A program made the position numbers and the translations under genes. Below the pieces are notes generated by a model. The model saw only the letters and a list, made by a program, of their open reading frames with translations, was not told the origin of the DNA and searched no databases. From the human T2T-CHM13v2.0 reference genome, Homo sapiens: a stretch of DNA of 64,000 bases. Positions 20,583 to 25,429 of the stretch are shown one piece after another; position 1 is the first letter of the stretch; each line of letters opens with the position of its first letter. The stretch lies in NCBI RefSeq assembly GCF_009914755.1, contig NC_060928.1; one strand, written 5' to 3'.

Positions 20583-22406
20583 CTGTTGATACAAGGTAAA
20601 AATTATGGTAGATGGTTAAATATGCACAAATAAATTAATAAAACAAACATAAAATAAATTATTAACAACAGCTATTTATCACCTAAAAATTAACGAACTT
20701 TTAGCCTAGTAGTACAAAGAGGGGACAGATCGTTAATACTGAAAAATGTGAAGGGAAAATTCCAACAAATTACCTGAAATGAAATAATCCTCTGAGATAT
20801 AAATAATACAGCTTCATTATCAAAGAAAATTGGTGGGCATTAAGATTGGCTTCCCCTTGGAGACAGGGTTTCACCATGTTGGCCAAGCTGGTCTCAAACT
20901 CCTGACCTCAAGTGATCCACCTACCTCAGCCTCCCAAAGTGCTAGGATTACAGGCATGAGCCATCATGTCCGGCCTACAGTTTATCTTGTGTACTAACCT
21001 GTTTCACTCTCTAAATGAGCAAAGTGGGAGATCACTGTCACGGCTGAAGTTACATGGCCAAGACAAACTATGGTCTGGGAGTCCCAGGTTCTCCTGTGTG
21101 GGCACTTTCCTGGAAGATGCTAAATGATAGGAAAATCTGGGTTTCATGTTTCTGTGTGGTCCTCACCTCACTTGACTTCTGCTCTTTCTGTTTGCTCTGG
21201 GCTTCCGTGCTCTCATTGATATAGTTCTCAGTTTTCCATTGGTCTGTATCCCATTCTGCCTTGGACATCTTTACTTCTTGCTGCTCACTGATGAATCAGG
21301 AGGCCTGTCCTGGAGATGAGCTTGGTATAGGCCAATTGCACATGGGTCTCAGAGCACTCCATCTTCAAGGTCCAGATAACATGAGAAATGAGTCTTCTCA
21401 CATCATTATTGGGGATGAGGGGCCGTAGCTGCTGGTTTAGCTGAATTTCAAACTGATCACCTGGGGACGAGAGCAATGGGTAATTGAAGCTTTTGGGCTC
21501 GGGAGACAGGCCAGTGCCCATGTTGTTGTATTCCCATTGTGTTTCACAGTCTTCTCTAAGTTGAACGCAGTCTCAGCAGAATCTCCCTCAGGAGGATGGT
21601 TGTAGGTTGTGTTTTCAGAGATGGTGCCTTCTGGCATAGTAGTGTTTTCCATAAAAATGTTTTGTTCAAAGGCATTTCTTGCAGTGGTGCTTTTAAAACA
21701 TTCTGATGGAGAAATACTTCCGGAAAAGGATTTTCCTGAAGACTCAGGTCTCCTAAAGATGAAAAAGCCCCTTGTGAAGGGGCATTTATGAGGCTTTTCA
21801 CTGCAGAGAATGGAGGCCTCTTTGCAAGCAAAGTCTACTGAGAGAACTTTTCTGGAATGTACGATTGGTTTTAACTCAACTTTGCATTTTCTAAAACCAA
21901 AATGGGTAAGTCTTTCAATCTGTTTCTGACCACAGGTAGGGCTTTTGCAGGGGTGGAGATAGAAGGCACGCCCATGGAGAAGGGTTTCAGCAAAGAGAAG
22001 ACTGCTGCCTTATGCTCTTGGTTGAACGAAGGCTTGGTATAGATGGCGTTTCCTGCTAACTTCTCATGCCCCTGCTCTATGTGAGGCTGTTCCAGCTCCC
22101 TTGGGGCTGGACTCCTGAGCCTTTTTTCTTTGGCAGCATTCTCCACAAATGCCCAGGCACCCTGTTCCTTCCTGTTGCTCTGCTTTCCCACCTCTTTGAA
22201 GTGACTTTTCTGGATGCTCCTTGGGCCCATGAGGATTCTGTTCACTCTCTGCAGGCTTTTGCCTACACTTTGAATCTTAGCCAGGCTGTTTTCCTGTGGT
22301 TGGACAGTTTCTAATTTCATGAGTTTTTGGATGCAGATTGAAGAGAGGGACTCTTTGTATGGTTTTTCGGAATACCCATCTTTCACATTTGAAAAAAACA
22401 GGTAAC

Positions 22407-24400
22407 TATAAGGTTAGCTGTTGGCAGAGCTAGCAGAGGTTTTATTTTGGACCAAAAAAAAAAAGCAATTGAATTGTTTTGTAGCTGAAGGCATAGGCAT
22501 GGGGGGTCCCCAGGTAGTAAACTACCCTGTGGGTGGGTTGAGGGCTAGGGCTGGGCCTCAGGTGGGTCTCACGTTCCCTGTGCTCCCTTCTGCTCTCTGG
22601 GAGAGTCGCAGGAGGGGCAGGCTGGGAGGGGCTGCCGCAGCTGTTCACTTGGGCAGGACGTCAGAGGACTAGGACACCAGCCTCCCATCATGGGTCTCGA
22701 TCTTCTTCACAACCACTGCCCTGGTGGTGCTGGTGCGGCTGAAGGAGCTGGAGCCCACACCAGAGCCAAAGCTGGGGCTTGGGAGGCCCCCACAGGCCGA
22801 GCTCAGATCACCTGCATAACCACTGGTGGTCTTTGTATGGATACTCATGTTCTGCATCCCAGAGTCCAGCTGGCTCTCCTCGCCCTCCAGCAGCTTCCTG
22901 TAGGTGGCTATCTCGATGTCCAGGGCCAGCTTGATGTTCATCAGTTCCTGGTACTCAAGCAGTTGCCATGCCATGTCCTGCTTGGCCTGCTGCAGGGCGG
23001 CCTCCAGCTTGGACAGCTTGGCGTTGGCATCCTTAACAGCCAGCCCCCTGTGCTGCAGACATCTGTGATGGTGCCCTCCAGGGAAGCCCTCTGGCCTTTG
23101 AGGCCCTCAGTCTCAGCCTGGAGCTGGCTGATGTTCCGGTTCATCTCAGAAATCTCAGTCTTTGTACACTGCAGGTCATCCTCGTGCTTCCCAGCCAGCA
23201 TCTGCAGCTCCTCATCCTTGATCTGGTACATGCTCTCAGCCTTGGCCTGGCTGCAGTTGGCGATCTCCTCGTATGGTGCCTTGACCTCAGCGATGATGCT
23301 GTTCATGCCCAGGGAGCGGCTGTTGTCCATGGGCAGCACCACAGATGTGTCCGAGATCTGGGACTGCAGCTCCTGGATCTCCTCTTCATACAGCTGCTTG
23401 AGGAAATTGATCTCGTCAGTCAGCCCTTCCAGGTGAGACTCCAGCTCTACCTTGTTCATGTAACCTTCATCCACATCCTCTTGATGAGGACAAATTCATT
23501 CTCCACCTCTGTACACTTATTGATCTCATCCTCATACTTGTTCTTGAAGTCCTCCACCAGCCCGGGCATGTTGCCAAGCTCCGCCTCCAGCTTCAGCTTC
23601 TCCTGGCCCAGAGTCTTCAGCTGCTGCCTAAGGTTGTTGATGTAGCTCTGGAACATGTTGTCCATGTTGCTCTGAGCCATCTTCTGCTGCTGCAGGAGGC
23701 TCCACTTAGTCTCCAGCATCTTGTTCTACTGCTCCAGGAACCATACCTTGTCTATGAAGGAGGCAAACTTGTTGTTGAGGGTCTTGATCTGCTGCTTCTC
23801 CTGGGTGCGCACAGCCTGGATGTTGGGGTCCACCTCCAGGTTAAGGGGGCTCAGCAGGCTCTGGTTGACTGTGATGGTGGTGATGCCACCCACGCTGCTG
23901 CCCTCACCATAGCCTCCGCCCAGACAACCTTGGAAGCTGCTGCTGCCCACTAGGGAGAAGCCTGAGGAGCTTATCTGGACACTGGGCCCACTTGTGTAGG
24001 AGTGGCTGCTGAAGGCCCGGGGCCCAGAGGTGGACACCTTGTAGGACTTCTGGGTCACCCTGATGGACATGGTGGAGGCAGGAGTGGGGGCAGGAAGGCC
24101 GAACCAGATAGAGATCCCAGAAGGAGTGGAGAAGCTGCTTCTTGGTCTTTTCAGTTAACTTTACCACATATCGTCTCATGACCGGAGGAATTTACAAGAG
24201 GGTATAACTTAGATTTATCCACATTTCTCATGACCTTCCCTGTGCCACCTGGAGGGCTGTAAGCAGGGTTTGCTTAGTGTAGCAAGTCGGCAACCTTGCT
24301 GTGGCACCTAGATAAGGGTTCAGGAATGCAGCTGCAGAGTATTCGGGGTAAGGGTCAGCTGCACTGCGGGGGCGGTTCCTGGGGCAGCTCGTCCCTAACA
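22407..24400 (-). mobile_element. ERVL-class solo LTR (LTR18-like) split by the KRT8 retrocopy; pieces at 24147-24400 and 22407-22420
   Basis: Begins TGTTAGGGAC, ends CAGCTAACCTTATA; 5-bp TSD GTAAC (+ strand) at 22402-22406 and 24401-24405; family from recollection. Confidence 0.65.
22421..24146 (-). pseudogene. KRT8P46: Keratin 8 processed pseudogene (probably KRT8P46)
   Basis: Intronless; ATG at 24070 [22 protein letters not shown]; rod-end motif [20 protein letters not shown]; premature stop and frameshifts; ancestral stop at 22645-22647; AATAAA at 22441-22446; symbol from memory. Confidence 0.92.
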
Positions 24401-24654
24401 GTAACAACATTGATTCTACATCTTATAGATTTTTCTATGAGAAATAAGGCAAGACGTAATTTAGTGCGTCATTGATGTCTAGCTGCTCACTCCCAAAGCC
24501 TGACAAGTTGATGCCATTGCTGTCTGAGGCCGCCTCCAGCTCAGTAGTCAGCTCAGTGCTCGTGTGCTTCTTCCGGGCTTGTAATACCTTCATGAACGCT
24601 CCTTCTGGATTCCCTACAGATAGATGCTTCTTCAACTGTCAGGTAAGACACAAT

Positions 24655-25084
24655 AAGTCTTTCTGAGTTTCTCTTATAGGGTTTAGCTTGTTAATTTCCT
24701 TATACTTTGTCCTCAAACTCAACTATCTTGTTCTTCCTTGCGCCTAGTTACCATAAACAGCCTACCCGCTTCCCGTCAGCTCTAATCAATAACTCACATC
24801 TGTTCCCTTGGTTACCTGCACCCCATGTTCCCCTGAAACTGCACATCTCACACGCTCCACCTCTGTCCCCCTCCCCTTCTATATTTAAAAAAATATGTAC
24901 AAGTAGCCAATTGGGTCAGCTCAAACTGTGCAGTCCAACCCCAGCCCAAGGGGGAGTAGCACAGAGATAGGGACTGCGTTGAGGATAAAAACCCCCTGGT
25001 CTCCTTTGTTCTCTGTGCTCTTGCGATCTTGATTGACGCAAGTGGCACCCTTCTGCAGAAGTAAATTGCCTTGCTGAAAGAATT
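24655..25084 (+). mobile_element. LTR10-family (HERV-I) LTR, truncated at the A-tail
   Basis: TAGCCAAT...GGATAAAAACCCC...GCACCCTTCTGCAGAAGTAAATTGCCTTGCTGA resembles LTR10 U3/R; left boundary approximate. Confidence 0.7.
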
Positions 25085-25429
25085 AAAAAAAAAAAAAAGA
25101 TTGGCTTCCCCTTTTAAAACCAAACACAAAACCACCAGTATCAGCAGAGAATGAAAGACTGAATCTGTGGTGTGTAGCCAGCAGTCTCTCATTGCCCTGT
25201 GGTTCTCACTGTGCTGTTTGCGCCACTATCCCAGCCAGCCTCCAGGGGGAATACTTCTCTACTGCCCAAAAGTCAGCACAACTCCCTTCCGCTCATTGGA
25301 TTCACTTAGCATTTCCAGTTATTTTTCACTTAGCTAAGTGAGCATGAAAAGGATCTCTACAGAGAATACACAGGCAGCAGAGATACTTCAAAACTTATTA
25401 ACATCAGGTTTCTTATATTATCCTACCTC

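What the first reader, a model, noticed from the sequence alone, without database searches (positions are those of the whole stretch)
20842..25113. LRRC37 and KRT8 pseudogenes form one 4.2-kb retrocopy of an antisense, LTR-terminated transcript
Seen: a perfect 17-bp TSD (20842-20858, 25097-25113) brackets the whole block. The A-tail is on the + strand, while LRRC37 and KRT8 read on the - strand. The LRRC37 exon appears to keep its splice sites and intronic flanks, so it is not a spliced sense mRNA copy. The tail begins inside an LTR10-like element shortly after AGTAAA, and the 5' end is truncated within an Alu. Inference: L1 machinery retroposed an RNA running antisense through an LRRC37 locus, and the KRT8 copy is second-generation (a retrocopy of a retrocopy). 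I recall other LRRC37 pseudogenes lying next to KRT8 pseudogenes elsewhere, which would make this a small non-autonomous composite retroposon family; this is unverified.
Basis: partly seen in the sequence, partly recalled or inferred. Interest (0 to 1): 0.8.

Follow-up and report, generated by a model that had tools for sequence, protein, structure and literature searches.

The report
Antisense LRRC37 retrocopy carrying nested KRT8 pseudogene
A 4.2-kb block in an intron of human MANBA is one old L1-made copy of an unspliced RNA that ran backwards through an LRRC37 exon and ended in a retroviral LTR; it is a tidy but ordinary retrocopy, not a new mobile family.

Summary
A perfect 17-bp direct repeat (20842-58, 25097-113; chance expectation 0.03) brackets 20859-25096. 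A 14-A run sits on the + strand at an L1-type target (TCTT/AA). Homology to 14 LRRC37 copies starts at 20858, inside a shared Alu, and ends at 24641, 5-6 nt beyond the exon-9 acceptor. There an ERV LTR ("LTR-B") begins at its first base. It is cut about 22 nt after AGTAAA, where 4 of 4 other copies run on ~72 nt. So L1 copied an unspliced, LTR-polyadenylated RNA antisense to LRRC37 exon 9.

New detail: KRT8P46 lies inside a second, solo LTR ("LTR-A", 5-bp repeat GTAAC) that interrupts exon 9. It replaces ~140 bp of that LTR and has no A-tail or repeat of its own.

Not supported: no source locus and no sibling copy exist in T2T-CHM13. KRT8P46 has no supported sister among 29 KRT8 pseudogenes. 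The "composite retroposon family" fails.

Unresolved: whether KRT8 was nested before retroposition. Divergence plus the intact repeat lean towards "before" (about 60%). Annotated pseudogenes, known mechanism: modest interest.

The parts
20842..20858 (+). 5' target-site duplication of the outer retrocopy (AAGATTGGCTTCCCCTT). The pre-insertion site reads CATT|AAGATT, which gives TCTT/AA on the other strand.
20859..20975 (-). Left arm of an Alu, antisense in the retroposed RNA. This is the 5'-truncation point of the retrocopy. The same Alu is full-length at the same place in the chr17 paralogues.
20976..21166 (-). LRRC37 intron-9 flank. It is unspliced and homologous to the chr17 paralogues. The GT donor is the reverse complement of 21165-6.
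21167..22401 (-). LRRC37 exon 9, 3' part.
   Evidence: The spliced chr10 retrocopy (L033) matches exactly 21167-24634. Exon numbering follows PMC3530683.
22402..22406 (.). GTAAC, one copy of the 5-bp target duplication of solo LTR-A. An 11-bp stretch (TTTAATGAATG in the paralogues) is missing just to its left.
22407..22419 (-). Terminal 13 nt of LTR-A (TATAAGGTTAGCT; other copies read TGTAAGGTTAGCY).
22420..24147 (-). KRT8P46, a full-length KRT8 mRNA copy. It has no A-tail and no target duplication, and 11 in-frame stops when read from its ATG at 24070.
24148..24400 (-). 253 nt of LTR-A, from a family unit of about 415 bp, ending ...CCCTAACA at 24400. About 140 bp of the LTR are missing at the KRT8 junction.
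24401..24635 (-). LRRC37 exon 9, 5' part. Its first 5 nt (GTAAC, 24401-05) are the second copy of the LTR-A target duplication.
24636..24641 (-). The last 5-6 nt of LRRC37 intron 8, including the AG acceptor. Homology to the paralogues ends here.
24642..25087 (+). LTR-B, an ERV LTR in sense orientation, running from its first base to its polyadenylation site (U3-R). It carries AGTAAA at 25060-65. The last ~72 nt (U5) seen in other copies are absent.
25085..25098 (+). Run of 14 A, the poly(A) tail of the retroposed RNA. Its first 3 A overlap the LTR's ATTAAA and its last 2 overlap the target duplication.
25097..25113 (+). 3' target-site duplication of the outer retrocopy.
21167..24635 (-). Alternative MANBA exon in RefSeq (hub annotation). 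Its borders are the native LRRC37 exon-9 splice sites, so the retrocopy delivered a ready-made exon in MANBA's orientation.
   Evidence: The hub's gene table; the AG and GT dinucleotides were read. I saw no expression data.

Best explanation
Positions 20859-25096 are one L1-mediated (target-primed) retrocopy of a non-coding, unspliced RNA. That RNA was transcribed antisense through exon 10/intron 9/exon 9 of an LRRC37 paralogue. It was cleaved and polyadenylated at the R/U5 site of an ERV LTR (LTR-B) that had integrated 5-6 bp upstream of exon 9. Reverse transcription stopped in an intron-9 Alu, which is the 5' truncation. The copy landed in a MANBA intron with its RNA sense opposite to MANBA, so the LRRC37 exon and its splice sites point the same way as MANBA and are annotated as an alternative MANBA exon. 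Exon 9 is interrupted by a solo LTR (LTR-A, 5-bp duplication GTAAC). A full-length KRT8 mRNA copy (KRT8P46) is inserted into that LTR, with loss of about 140 bp of LTR and without an A-tail or duplication. That pattern fits either an atypical L1 insertion or a later deletion. The outer event and the order LTR-A then KRT8 are shown. By inference I lean (about 60%) to both nested insertions having been in the source, which would make KRT8P46 a second-generation copy. The source paralogue is not in T2T-CHM13. This is a single event, not a family.
For: - TSD 17/17, with chance expectation 0.03.
- A-run directly before the 3' TSD, and a TCTT/AA-type target.
- Homology to 14 LRRC37 copies in 13 loci spans 20858-22318/22401 and 24397/24401-24641 only, that is, up to the TSD on one side and up to LTR-B on the other.
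- The Alu and intron 9 are retained. By contrast the chr10 retrocopy is spliced exon 10-9-8.
- LTR-B starts at its own first base: 5 of 5 other copies start (T)GTAAGA with unrelated flanks.
- LTR-B stops at ...ATTAAA, about 22 nt after AGTAAA, while 4 of 4 other copies continue about 72 nt.
- LTR-A termini plus GTAAC/GTAAC flank KRT8P46, and the paralogues show the empty site with a single GTAAC.
- KRT8P46 runs from the usual 5' end to within 4 nt of the longest poly(A) site but has no A-tail. About 20 of 29 other KRT8 pseudogenes keep one (counted by eye).
- Timing, as private non-CpG changes: LRRC37 part 0.070+-0.007, LTR-A 0.077+-0.018, LTR-B 0.054+-0.011, KRT8P46 0.043+-0.005. Retroposition must postdate LTR-B, so most of the allowed interval is younger than KRT8P46. 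An intact 17-bp TSD and a pure A-run fit a younger event somewhat better.
Against: - No source locus exists in this genome. None of the 16 other exon-9 places carries LTR-B, LTR-A or KRT8; one tandem copy at chr17:46.379 Mb was not fetched.
- 0 of 39 scored hits cross either junction.
- KRT8P46 has no supported sister (55/34 with L014) in a star-like tree of 30. That is what an independent, first-generation insertion on chr4 would also give.
- The divergence figures overlap within 1-2 standard errors. Those for the LTRs rest on only 5 and 8 comparison copies, chosen as best matches.
- A perfect 17-bp TSD is still expected about 1 time in 4-5 at the age of KRT8P46 (my arithmetic).
- The promoter of the antisense RNA is unknown because the copy is 5'-truncated.
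- No outgroup primate could be examined.
Confidence: 0.85

Rival explanations
1. Nested after arrival. A shorter (about 2.2-kb) antisense LRRC37/LTR-B retrocopy landed in MANBA first. LTR-A then integrated into it on chr4 and became a solo LTR, and a first-generation KRT8 mRNA copy inserted into that LTR. A mixed variant has LTR-A at the source and KRT8 on chr4.
For: KRT8P46 branches from the centre of a star tree with no supported sister. No locus with the nested arrangement exists. The LRRC37 part's private divergence (0.070) is close to that of LTR-B (0.054+-0.011) and LTR-A (0.077+-0.018). An early retroposition followed by the two insertions therefore fits within error.
Against: This order needs LTR-B older than the retroposition, which is older than LTR-A. 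The point estimates run the other way (0.054 against 0.077), though only by about 1 SE. A perfect 17-bp TSD plus a pure A-run is expected only about 5-12% of the time at 0.05-0.07 changes per site (my arithmetic).
Confidence: 0.35
2. Template-switch chimera. L1 reverse transcriptase started on a polyadenylated LTR-B-containing RNA and jumped to a second RNA (antisense LRRC37), so the LTR never sat next to exon 9 in DNA.
For: Chimeric retrocopies made this way are known (recalled, not checked here). No genomic locus shows the exon-9/LTR-B junction.
Against: The junction lies exactly at the LTR's first base: 5 of 5 other copies start there with unrelated flanks. That is the signature of integrase-mediated insertion into DNA. 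ERV transcripts do not begin at U3 base 1, so a jump at that base would be a coincidence.
Confidence: 0.05
3. Orphan L1 3' transduction. The 'antisense RNA' was a read-through transcript of an L1 lying downstream of exon 10, antisense to LRRC37. It ended at the LTR-B site and was so 5'-truncated that no L1 sequence remains. This is a variant of the best explanation and concerns only the promoter.
For: It would explain why an unspliced antisense genomic stretch was a good L1 template (cis preference; recalled). 5' truncation is shown.
Against: In the closest paralogue (L031), the 4 kb upstream of the Alu holds exon 10 (Pfam LRRC37AB_C, E 4.6e-13). No open frame of 70 aa or more there has an L1 domain: 7 frames tested, 0 hits. 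This is a weak test, because a decayed L1 or one further away would be missed.
Confidence: 0.12
4. DNA-level segmental duplication of an LRRC37 core-duplicon fragment to chr4. On this view the A-run and direct repeat are coincidental.
For: LRRC37 spreads mainly by segmental duplication (PMC3530683, passages read). The copy keeps intron sequence.
Against: Homology stops exactly at the TSD and at the LTR's polyadenylation site. The 17-bp repeat has a chance expectation of 0.03. An L1-type target and an A-tail are present.
Confidence: 0.02
5. The block is a member of a small composite non-autonomous retroposon family (LRRC37 + KRT8 + LTR) with several copies.
Against: No other locus covers more than one component of the block (best 40 of 1210 candidates scored; a sibling would rank first). 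0 of 13 LRRC37 loci have KRT8 within about 4-5 kb. 0 of 39 hits cross either junction. The chr9, chr22 and chr11 LRRC37 fragments have other borders.
Confidence: 0.02

Closest known systems
L1-mediated retrocopies (processed pseudogenes) made in trans by target-primed reverse transcription
   Same: It has a 17-bp TSD, a 3' A-tail after a polyadenylation signal, a TCTT/AA-type target and 5' truncation. It is a single dispersed copy.
   Different: The template was not a spliced sense mRNA. It was an unspliced RNA antisense to the gene it resembles, and it ended at an ERV LTR's poly(A) site. It carries an exon with both splice sites, an Alu, and two nested insertions.
LRRC37E, the chr10 retrocopy of LRRC37 (Giannuzzi et al. 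2013, PMC3530683; passages read)
   Same: It contains the same exon 9. Its private divergence equals that of KRT8P46 (0.043 against 0.043) and is lower than that of the chr4 LRRC37 part (0.070). It is a weak sister of the chr4 copy in the tree (75/85).
   Different: The chr10 copy is a sense, spliced copy (exon 10-9-8 joined). The chr4 copy is antisense and unspliced. It is not mentioned in the main text of that paper or of PMC3371713: 0 occurrences of chr4, chromosome 4 or 4q24. The supplements could not be opened.
Orphan L1 3' transductions, and retrocopies of read-through or non-coding transcripts
   Same: Unspliced genomic sequence was mobilised up to a downstream poly(A) site, with TSD and tail and without any retroelement body of its own.
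   Different: No L1 was found at the corresponding place in the closest paralogue (weak test). The true source is not available.
SVA-type composite retroposons
   Same: It is a mosaic of unrelated pieces (Alu, gene fragment, LTR) mobilised by L1.
   Different: There is only one copy and no shared 3' end with other loci. The mosaic arose by nesting in DNA and is not an amplifying element.

Membership tests
L1/TPRT retrocopy | Target-site duplication of about 7-20 bp flanking the whole insert | tested here: met
   17/17 identical; only 2 matches in 64 kb against 0.03 expected
L1/TPRT retrocopy | Poly(A) tail directly before the 3' TSD, downstream of a polyadenylation hexamer | tested here: met
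   14-A run at 25085-98. AGTAAA at 25060 lies about 22 nt upstream of the point where LTR homology stops.
L1/TPRT retrocopy | L1 endonuclease-like target (TTTT/AA and close variants; the consensus is recalled) | tested here: met
   The pre-insertion site CATT|AAGATT gives TCTT/AA on the other strand.
L1/TPRT retrocopy | Homology to the source ends at the TSD and tail, not beyond | tested here: met
   Paralogue homology starts at 20858 and ends at 24641; LTR-B then runs to the tail.
Processed pseudogene in the strict sense | Introns removed; sense strand of the parent mRNA | tested here: not met
   The intron-9 flank, the Alu and the intron-8 acceptor are kept, and the tail is on the strand opposite to the exon. 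The nested KRT8P46 does meet this feature for KRT8.
Segmental duplication of the LRRC37 core duplicon | DNA-level copy whose homology runs past any repeat or tail signature | tested here: not met
Composite retroposon family | Several copies with the same internal junctions and 3' end but different TSDs | tested here: not met
   Only the window itself spans any junction: 0 of 39 non-self hits at each of two junctions.
Second-generation retrocopy (copy of a copy) for KRT8P46 | A source locus with the nested KRT8 copy, or a sister pseudogene sharing derived changes | tested here: not met
   No such locus was found. The tree is a star and the best grouping has 55/34 support. Absence of the source does not exclude the reading, because the LTR-B-bearing source is missing in any case.
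Second-generation retrocopy (copy of a copy) for KRT8P46 | KRT8 insertion older than the outer retroposition | tested here: inconclusive
   KRT8P46 is at 0.043+-0.005. The retroposition must be no older than LTR-B at 0.054+-0.011. The intact TSD leans towards a younger event.
Solo ERV LTR (LTR-A) | Both LTR termini present, a short target duplication, and an empty site in paralogues | tested here: met
   Termini TATAAGGTTAGCT... and ...CCCTAACA; GTAAC on both sides; 4 of 4 paralogues shown have a single GTAAC. Some family copies lie in pairs 6.7-13.7 kb apart.
   No repeat library is on hand. What was seen: an LTR of about 515 bp with copies in pairs 5-8 kb apart. After the chr19 5' LTR there is a stretch that resembles a tRNA-Pro primer-binding site as I recall it. 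The name remains unverified.

The most novel reading that the evidence does not exclude
The chr4 block is a molecular fossil of an LRRC37 paralogue that no longer exists in the human genome. A >4.2-kb antisense RNA, polyadenylated by an intronic ERV LTR, already carried a solo LTR and a KRT8 retrocopy when L1 copied it. KRT8P46 would then be a second-generation pseudogene that travelled in reverse orientation. The event also handed MANBA a ready-made 3.5-kb exon with working splice sites.
Probability: 0.55. Interest if true: 0.4.

Novelty: new member of a known kind. Interest (0 to 1): 0.3.

Why it matters
It gives a clean, fully dissected example of L1 mobilising something other than a spliced mRNA: an antisense, intron-containing RNA terminated by an ERV LTR. 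It explains why two unrelated annotated pseudogenes (LRRC37A15P, KRT8P46) share one locus and one orientation inside MANBA, and why RefSeq lists a 3.5-kb alternative MANBA exon there. Both pseudogenes recur in eQTL/TWAS lists for the NFKB1-MANBA disease locus. I saw this in the search listings and in one passage of PMC12263501. Knowing that both lie within one annotated MANBA exon cautions against reading them as independent genes; I saw no expression data. The block also preserves sequence of an LRRC37 lineage that branches near the base of the A/C types. This is useful to annotators but not surprising to specialists.

Tried and rejected
- The apparent 10-bp repeat AACAG(G)TAAC around 'KRT8 + LTR piece' looked at first like a TSD of one composite insertion. 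Comparison with five other LTR-A copies showed that the 13 nt next to KRT8's 3' end are the LTR's own terminus. The real repeat is the 5-bp GTAAC of a solo LTR, and KRT8 is inside it.
- I tested an LTR-driven KRT8 transcript as the origin of the LTR-A/KRT8 junction. No other locus has that junction.
- I searched for an L1 upstream of the Alu in the closest paralogue and found none (weak test).
- I tried dating by divergence to order the events. The figures are given, but they overlap too much to decide.
KRT8P46 was therefore compared with a majority of 29 pseudogenes, not with the parent gene.
- Literature: searches 'LRRC37A15P' (9 papers), 'KRT8P46' (10), 'LRRC37 + segmental duplication + retrotransposition' (8) and 'LRRC37 gene family' (49) gave only expression or eQTL mentions in the listings. 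I read passages of four papers only. None describes the origin of this block.

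
Full report
**The observation.** The window is human T2T-CHM13 chr4:106,020,001-106,084,000 (hub note). The sequence AAGATTGGCTTCCCCTT occurs at 20842-20858 and 25097-25113 and nowhere else in the 64 kb, even with 2 mismatches allowed. The chance expectation is 0.03, and 0 of 100 shuffles gave two matches. 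A pure run of 14 A (25085-25098) lies on the + strand directly before the 3' copy. The inferred pre-insertion site, CATT|AAGATT, reads TCTT/AA on the other strand. That is a common variant of the L1 endonuclease site; the consensus is recalled from memory.

**What the block is made of.** A whole-genome search with the block found only the block itself at full length; the best 40 of 1210 candidates were scored. Positions 22420-24151 match dozens of KRT8 processed pseudogenes at 80-89%. The rest matches LRRC37 loci.

- A search with 20976-22401 returned 17 candidates, all scored: the window, 12 places on chr17, and one each on chr10, chr9, chr22 and chr11.
- I fetched 13 loci of 10 kb. They cover 15 of the 16 other places, one of them (chr17:46.375 Mb) only in part; the tandem copy at chr17:46.379 Mb was not fetched. 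I compared them with window 20400-25500.
- Every chr17 copy that holds the whole exon (11 full copies in 8 of the loci; the chr17:39.9 Mb locus holds only a ~110-bp exon-9 piece) matches 20858-22310/22401 and then 24397/24401-24641, and nothing else.
- The first stretch comprises the left arm of an Alu, 190 nt of intron 9 and the 3' part of exon 9. The second is the 5' part of exon 9 plus 5-6 nt of intron 8, including the AG acceptor.
- The exon is 'exon 9' of Giannuzzi et al. 2013, 1532 bp in A-type genes (PMC3530683, passages read).
- In the closest paralogue (L031, chr17:69.00 Mb, 87-89% identity) the Alu is full-length (3779-4078). Exon 10, identified by a Pfam LRRC37AB_C hit at E 4.6e-13, lies just beyond it.
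- The chr10 copy matches only 21167-24634 and is joined to exons 10 and 8. It is the spliced retrocopy LRRC37E of that paper.

The chr4 copy, in contrast, is unspliced, and its tail is on the strand opposite to the exon.

**The 3' end.** Positions 24642-25087 belong to a dispersed LTR family, which I call LTR-B. There were 519 candidates and 40 were scored. All 39 non-self hits begin at or after the same point, and several lie in pairs 5-8 kb apart, as proviral LTRs do.

- Five of five other copies begin (T)GTAAGA... at the position equivalent to 24642/3, with unrelated flanks. The LTR in the window therefore starts at its true first base, which is exactly where LRRC37 homology stops.
- Four of four other copies continue about 72 nt past ...GAATTAAA, whereas the window goes into the A-run there.
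- AGTAAA (25060) lies about 22 nt upstream and is present in 8 of the 9 aligned copies (printout).

So the retroposed RNA used the LTR's own polyadenylation site. The LTR must have been integrated in DNA 5-6 bp upstream of exon 9 in the source locus. The name 'LTR10' could not be tested because no repeat library is available.

**The nested part.** Relative to the paralogues, 22402-24400 is an insertion. The paralogues carry the empty site ...GCAGTTTAATGAATG-GTAAC-AACATTG.

- Positions 24148-24400 match a second LTR family, LTR-A. All 26 candidates were scored, identity was 74-85%, the family unit is about 415 bp, and some copies lie in pairs 6.7-13.7 kb apart.
- The 13 nt at 22407-22419 (TATAAGGTTAGCT) are the other terminus of that same LTR. 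Four of five comparison copies show TGTAAGGTTAGCY-like starts; the fifth was displayed from inside the LTR.
- GTAAC flanks both ends (22402-06 and 24401-05).

LTR-A is therefore a solo LTR that integrated into exon 9 with a 5-bp duplication. An 11-bp loss lies beside it.

KRT8P46 (22420-24147, - strand) sits inside this LTR and replaces about 140 bp of it.

- It runs from the usual KRT8 5' end (GACCAAGAAG...) to ...GCTCTGCCAAC, within 4 nt of the longest poly(A) site used by other copies.
- It has no A-tail and no duplication. About 20 of the 29 other pseudogenes still show an A-run (counted by eye).
- This points to an atypical insertion with target deletion, or to a later deletion that removed the tail.
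- The copy is dead: 11 stops in frame from its ATG.

The order LTR-A then KRT8 follows from the nesting.

**Source and siblings.** None of the LRRC37 loci examined has KRT8, LTR-A or an adjacent LTR-B. The only LTR-B-like match is 117 nt at 73% identity, 2.4 kb from a 112-nt exon fragment in L043.

- Searches with 221-231-nt probes across the exon-9/LTR-B and KRT8/LTR-A junctions found hits to one side or the other but none that crosses. That is 0 of 39 scored non-self hits each, with 66 and 73 candidates.
- The chr9 copy is an unspliced fragment (part of exon 10, the Alu, and the first ~620 bp of exon 9) with different borders.
- The chr22 and chr11 copies are exon-9 pieces of 460 bp and 290 bp.

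There is thus no source and no sibling in this genome, and the 'composite retroposon family' idea fails.

**Trees and ages.**

- In a maximum-likelihood tree of 11 LRRC37 sequences, the chr4 copy has an end branch of 0.071. It is a weak sister (75/85) of the chr10 retrocopy (end branch 0.040), near the base of the A/C types.
- In a tree of KRT8P46 plus the 29 best-matching KRT8 pseudogenes, the topology is a star. KRT8P46 has an end branch of 0.094 against a median of 0.09, and no supported partner (55/34).
- Changes private to the window copy at non-CpG sites are: LRRC37 part 104/1488 = 0.070+-0.007; LTR-A 17/222 = 0.077+-0.018; LTR-B 22/408 = 0.054+-0.011; KRT8P46 67/1559 = 0.043+-0.005.
- The chr10 retrocopy, said to have arisen in the Catarrhini ancestor, gives 62/1433 = 0.043+-0.005.
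- The LTR figures rest on few, best-matching comparison copies and are upper bounds.

**Order of nesting and retroposition.** Retroposition must postdate LTR-B (no more than about 0.054). If it happened at any time in that interval with equal chance, about four-fifths of the interval is younger than KRT8P46. An unblemished 17-bp duplication and a pure A-run are also likelier for a younger event. By my arithmetic they are expected roughly 45% of the time averaged over 0-0.043, against about 12% at 0.043-0.054.

'Nested after' also needs LTR-B to be older than LTR-A, which is opposite to the point estimates, though only by about one standard error.

Against 'nested before': the differences are small, gene conversion among the chr17 copies could inflate the LRRC37 figure, and the star position of KRT8P46 is exactly what a first-generation insertion would give.

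It is inferred, not shown.

**Consequences and comparison.** Because the RNA was antisense to LRRC37 and inserted antisense to MANBA, exon 9 with its AG and GT now points along MANBA. RefSeq lists an alternative MANBA exon with exactly these borders, 21167-24635 (hub table; dinucleotides read).

Mechanistically this is an ordinary L1 retrocopy with an unusual template. The closest named relatives are the chr10 LRRC37 retrocopy, orphan 3' transductions, and retrocopies of non-coding RNAs. It is not a segmental duplication, and a template-switch chimera is unlikely because the junction sits at LTR base 1.

In the held literature, LRRC37A15P and KRT8P46 appear only in expression, eQTL and TWAS lists.

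**Verdict.** The core interpretation is supported. The family idea is rejected. The second-generation KRT8 remains open with a mild lean in its favour. It is a new member of a known kind, of modest interest.

Noticed in passing
window 28150-29400: LOC100288914 ('mannosidase beta like' pseudogene, + strand) looks like a processed retrocopy. It has AATAAA followed by a run of 14 A near 29360, and AAAGTCTACT on both sides. It shares no sequence with the MANBA exons in the window, so it appears to be a copy of the differently named 'mannosidase beta like' gene that happens to lie in a MANBA intron.
   Followed up: partly
G000:C17:46367391-46380822 (partly L039): Four head-to-tail copies of the LRRC37 exon-9 region lie at a 3994-bp spacing and are nearly identical to each other (end branches 0-0.002 in the tree).
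   Followed up: no
L034 (G000:C9:123779640-123780976): The chr9 LRRC37 fragment is unspliced (part of exon 10, the Alu, part of exon 9). It also has an extra 105-nt exon-9 piece, 94% identical to the window, placed out of order about 6 bp upstream. How it arose was not examined.
   Followed up: partly
window 23381-24375: The RefSeq 'enhancer' feature covers the 5' half of KRT8P46 plus almost all of the retained U3-side part of LTR-A. LTR-A lies upstream of KRT8P46 and in the same orientation, so an LTR-derived regulatory element is a possible reading. This was not tested.
   Followed up: no
window 22396-22401 versus L031 5817-5829: An 11-bp stretch present in 4 of 4 paralogues shown (TTTAATGAATG) is missing in the window immediately beside the LTR-A integration site.
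   Followed up: no
G000:C12:52869532-52869638: This is a likely position of exon 1 of the KRT8 parent gene in this assembly (93% identity to the first 107 nt of KRT8P46).
   Followed up: no
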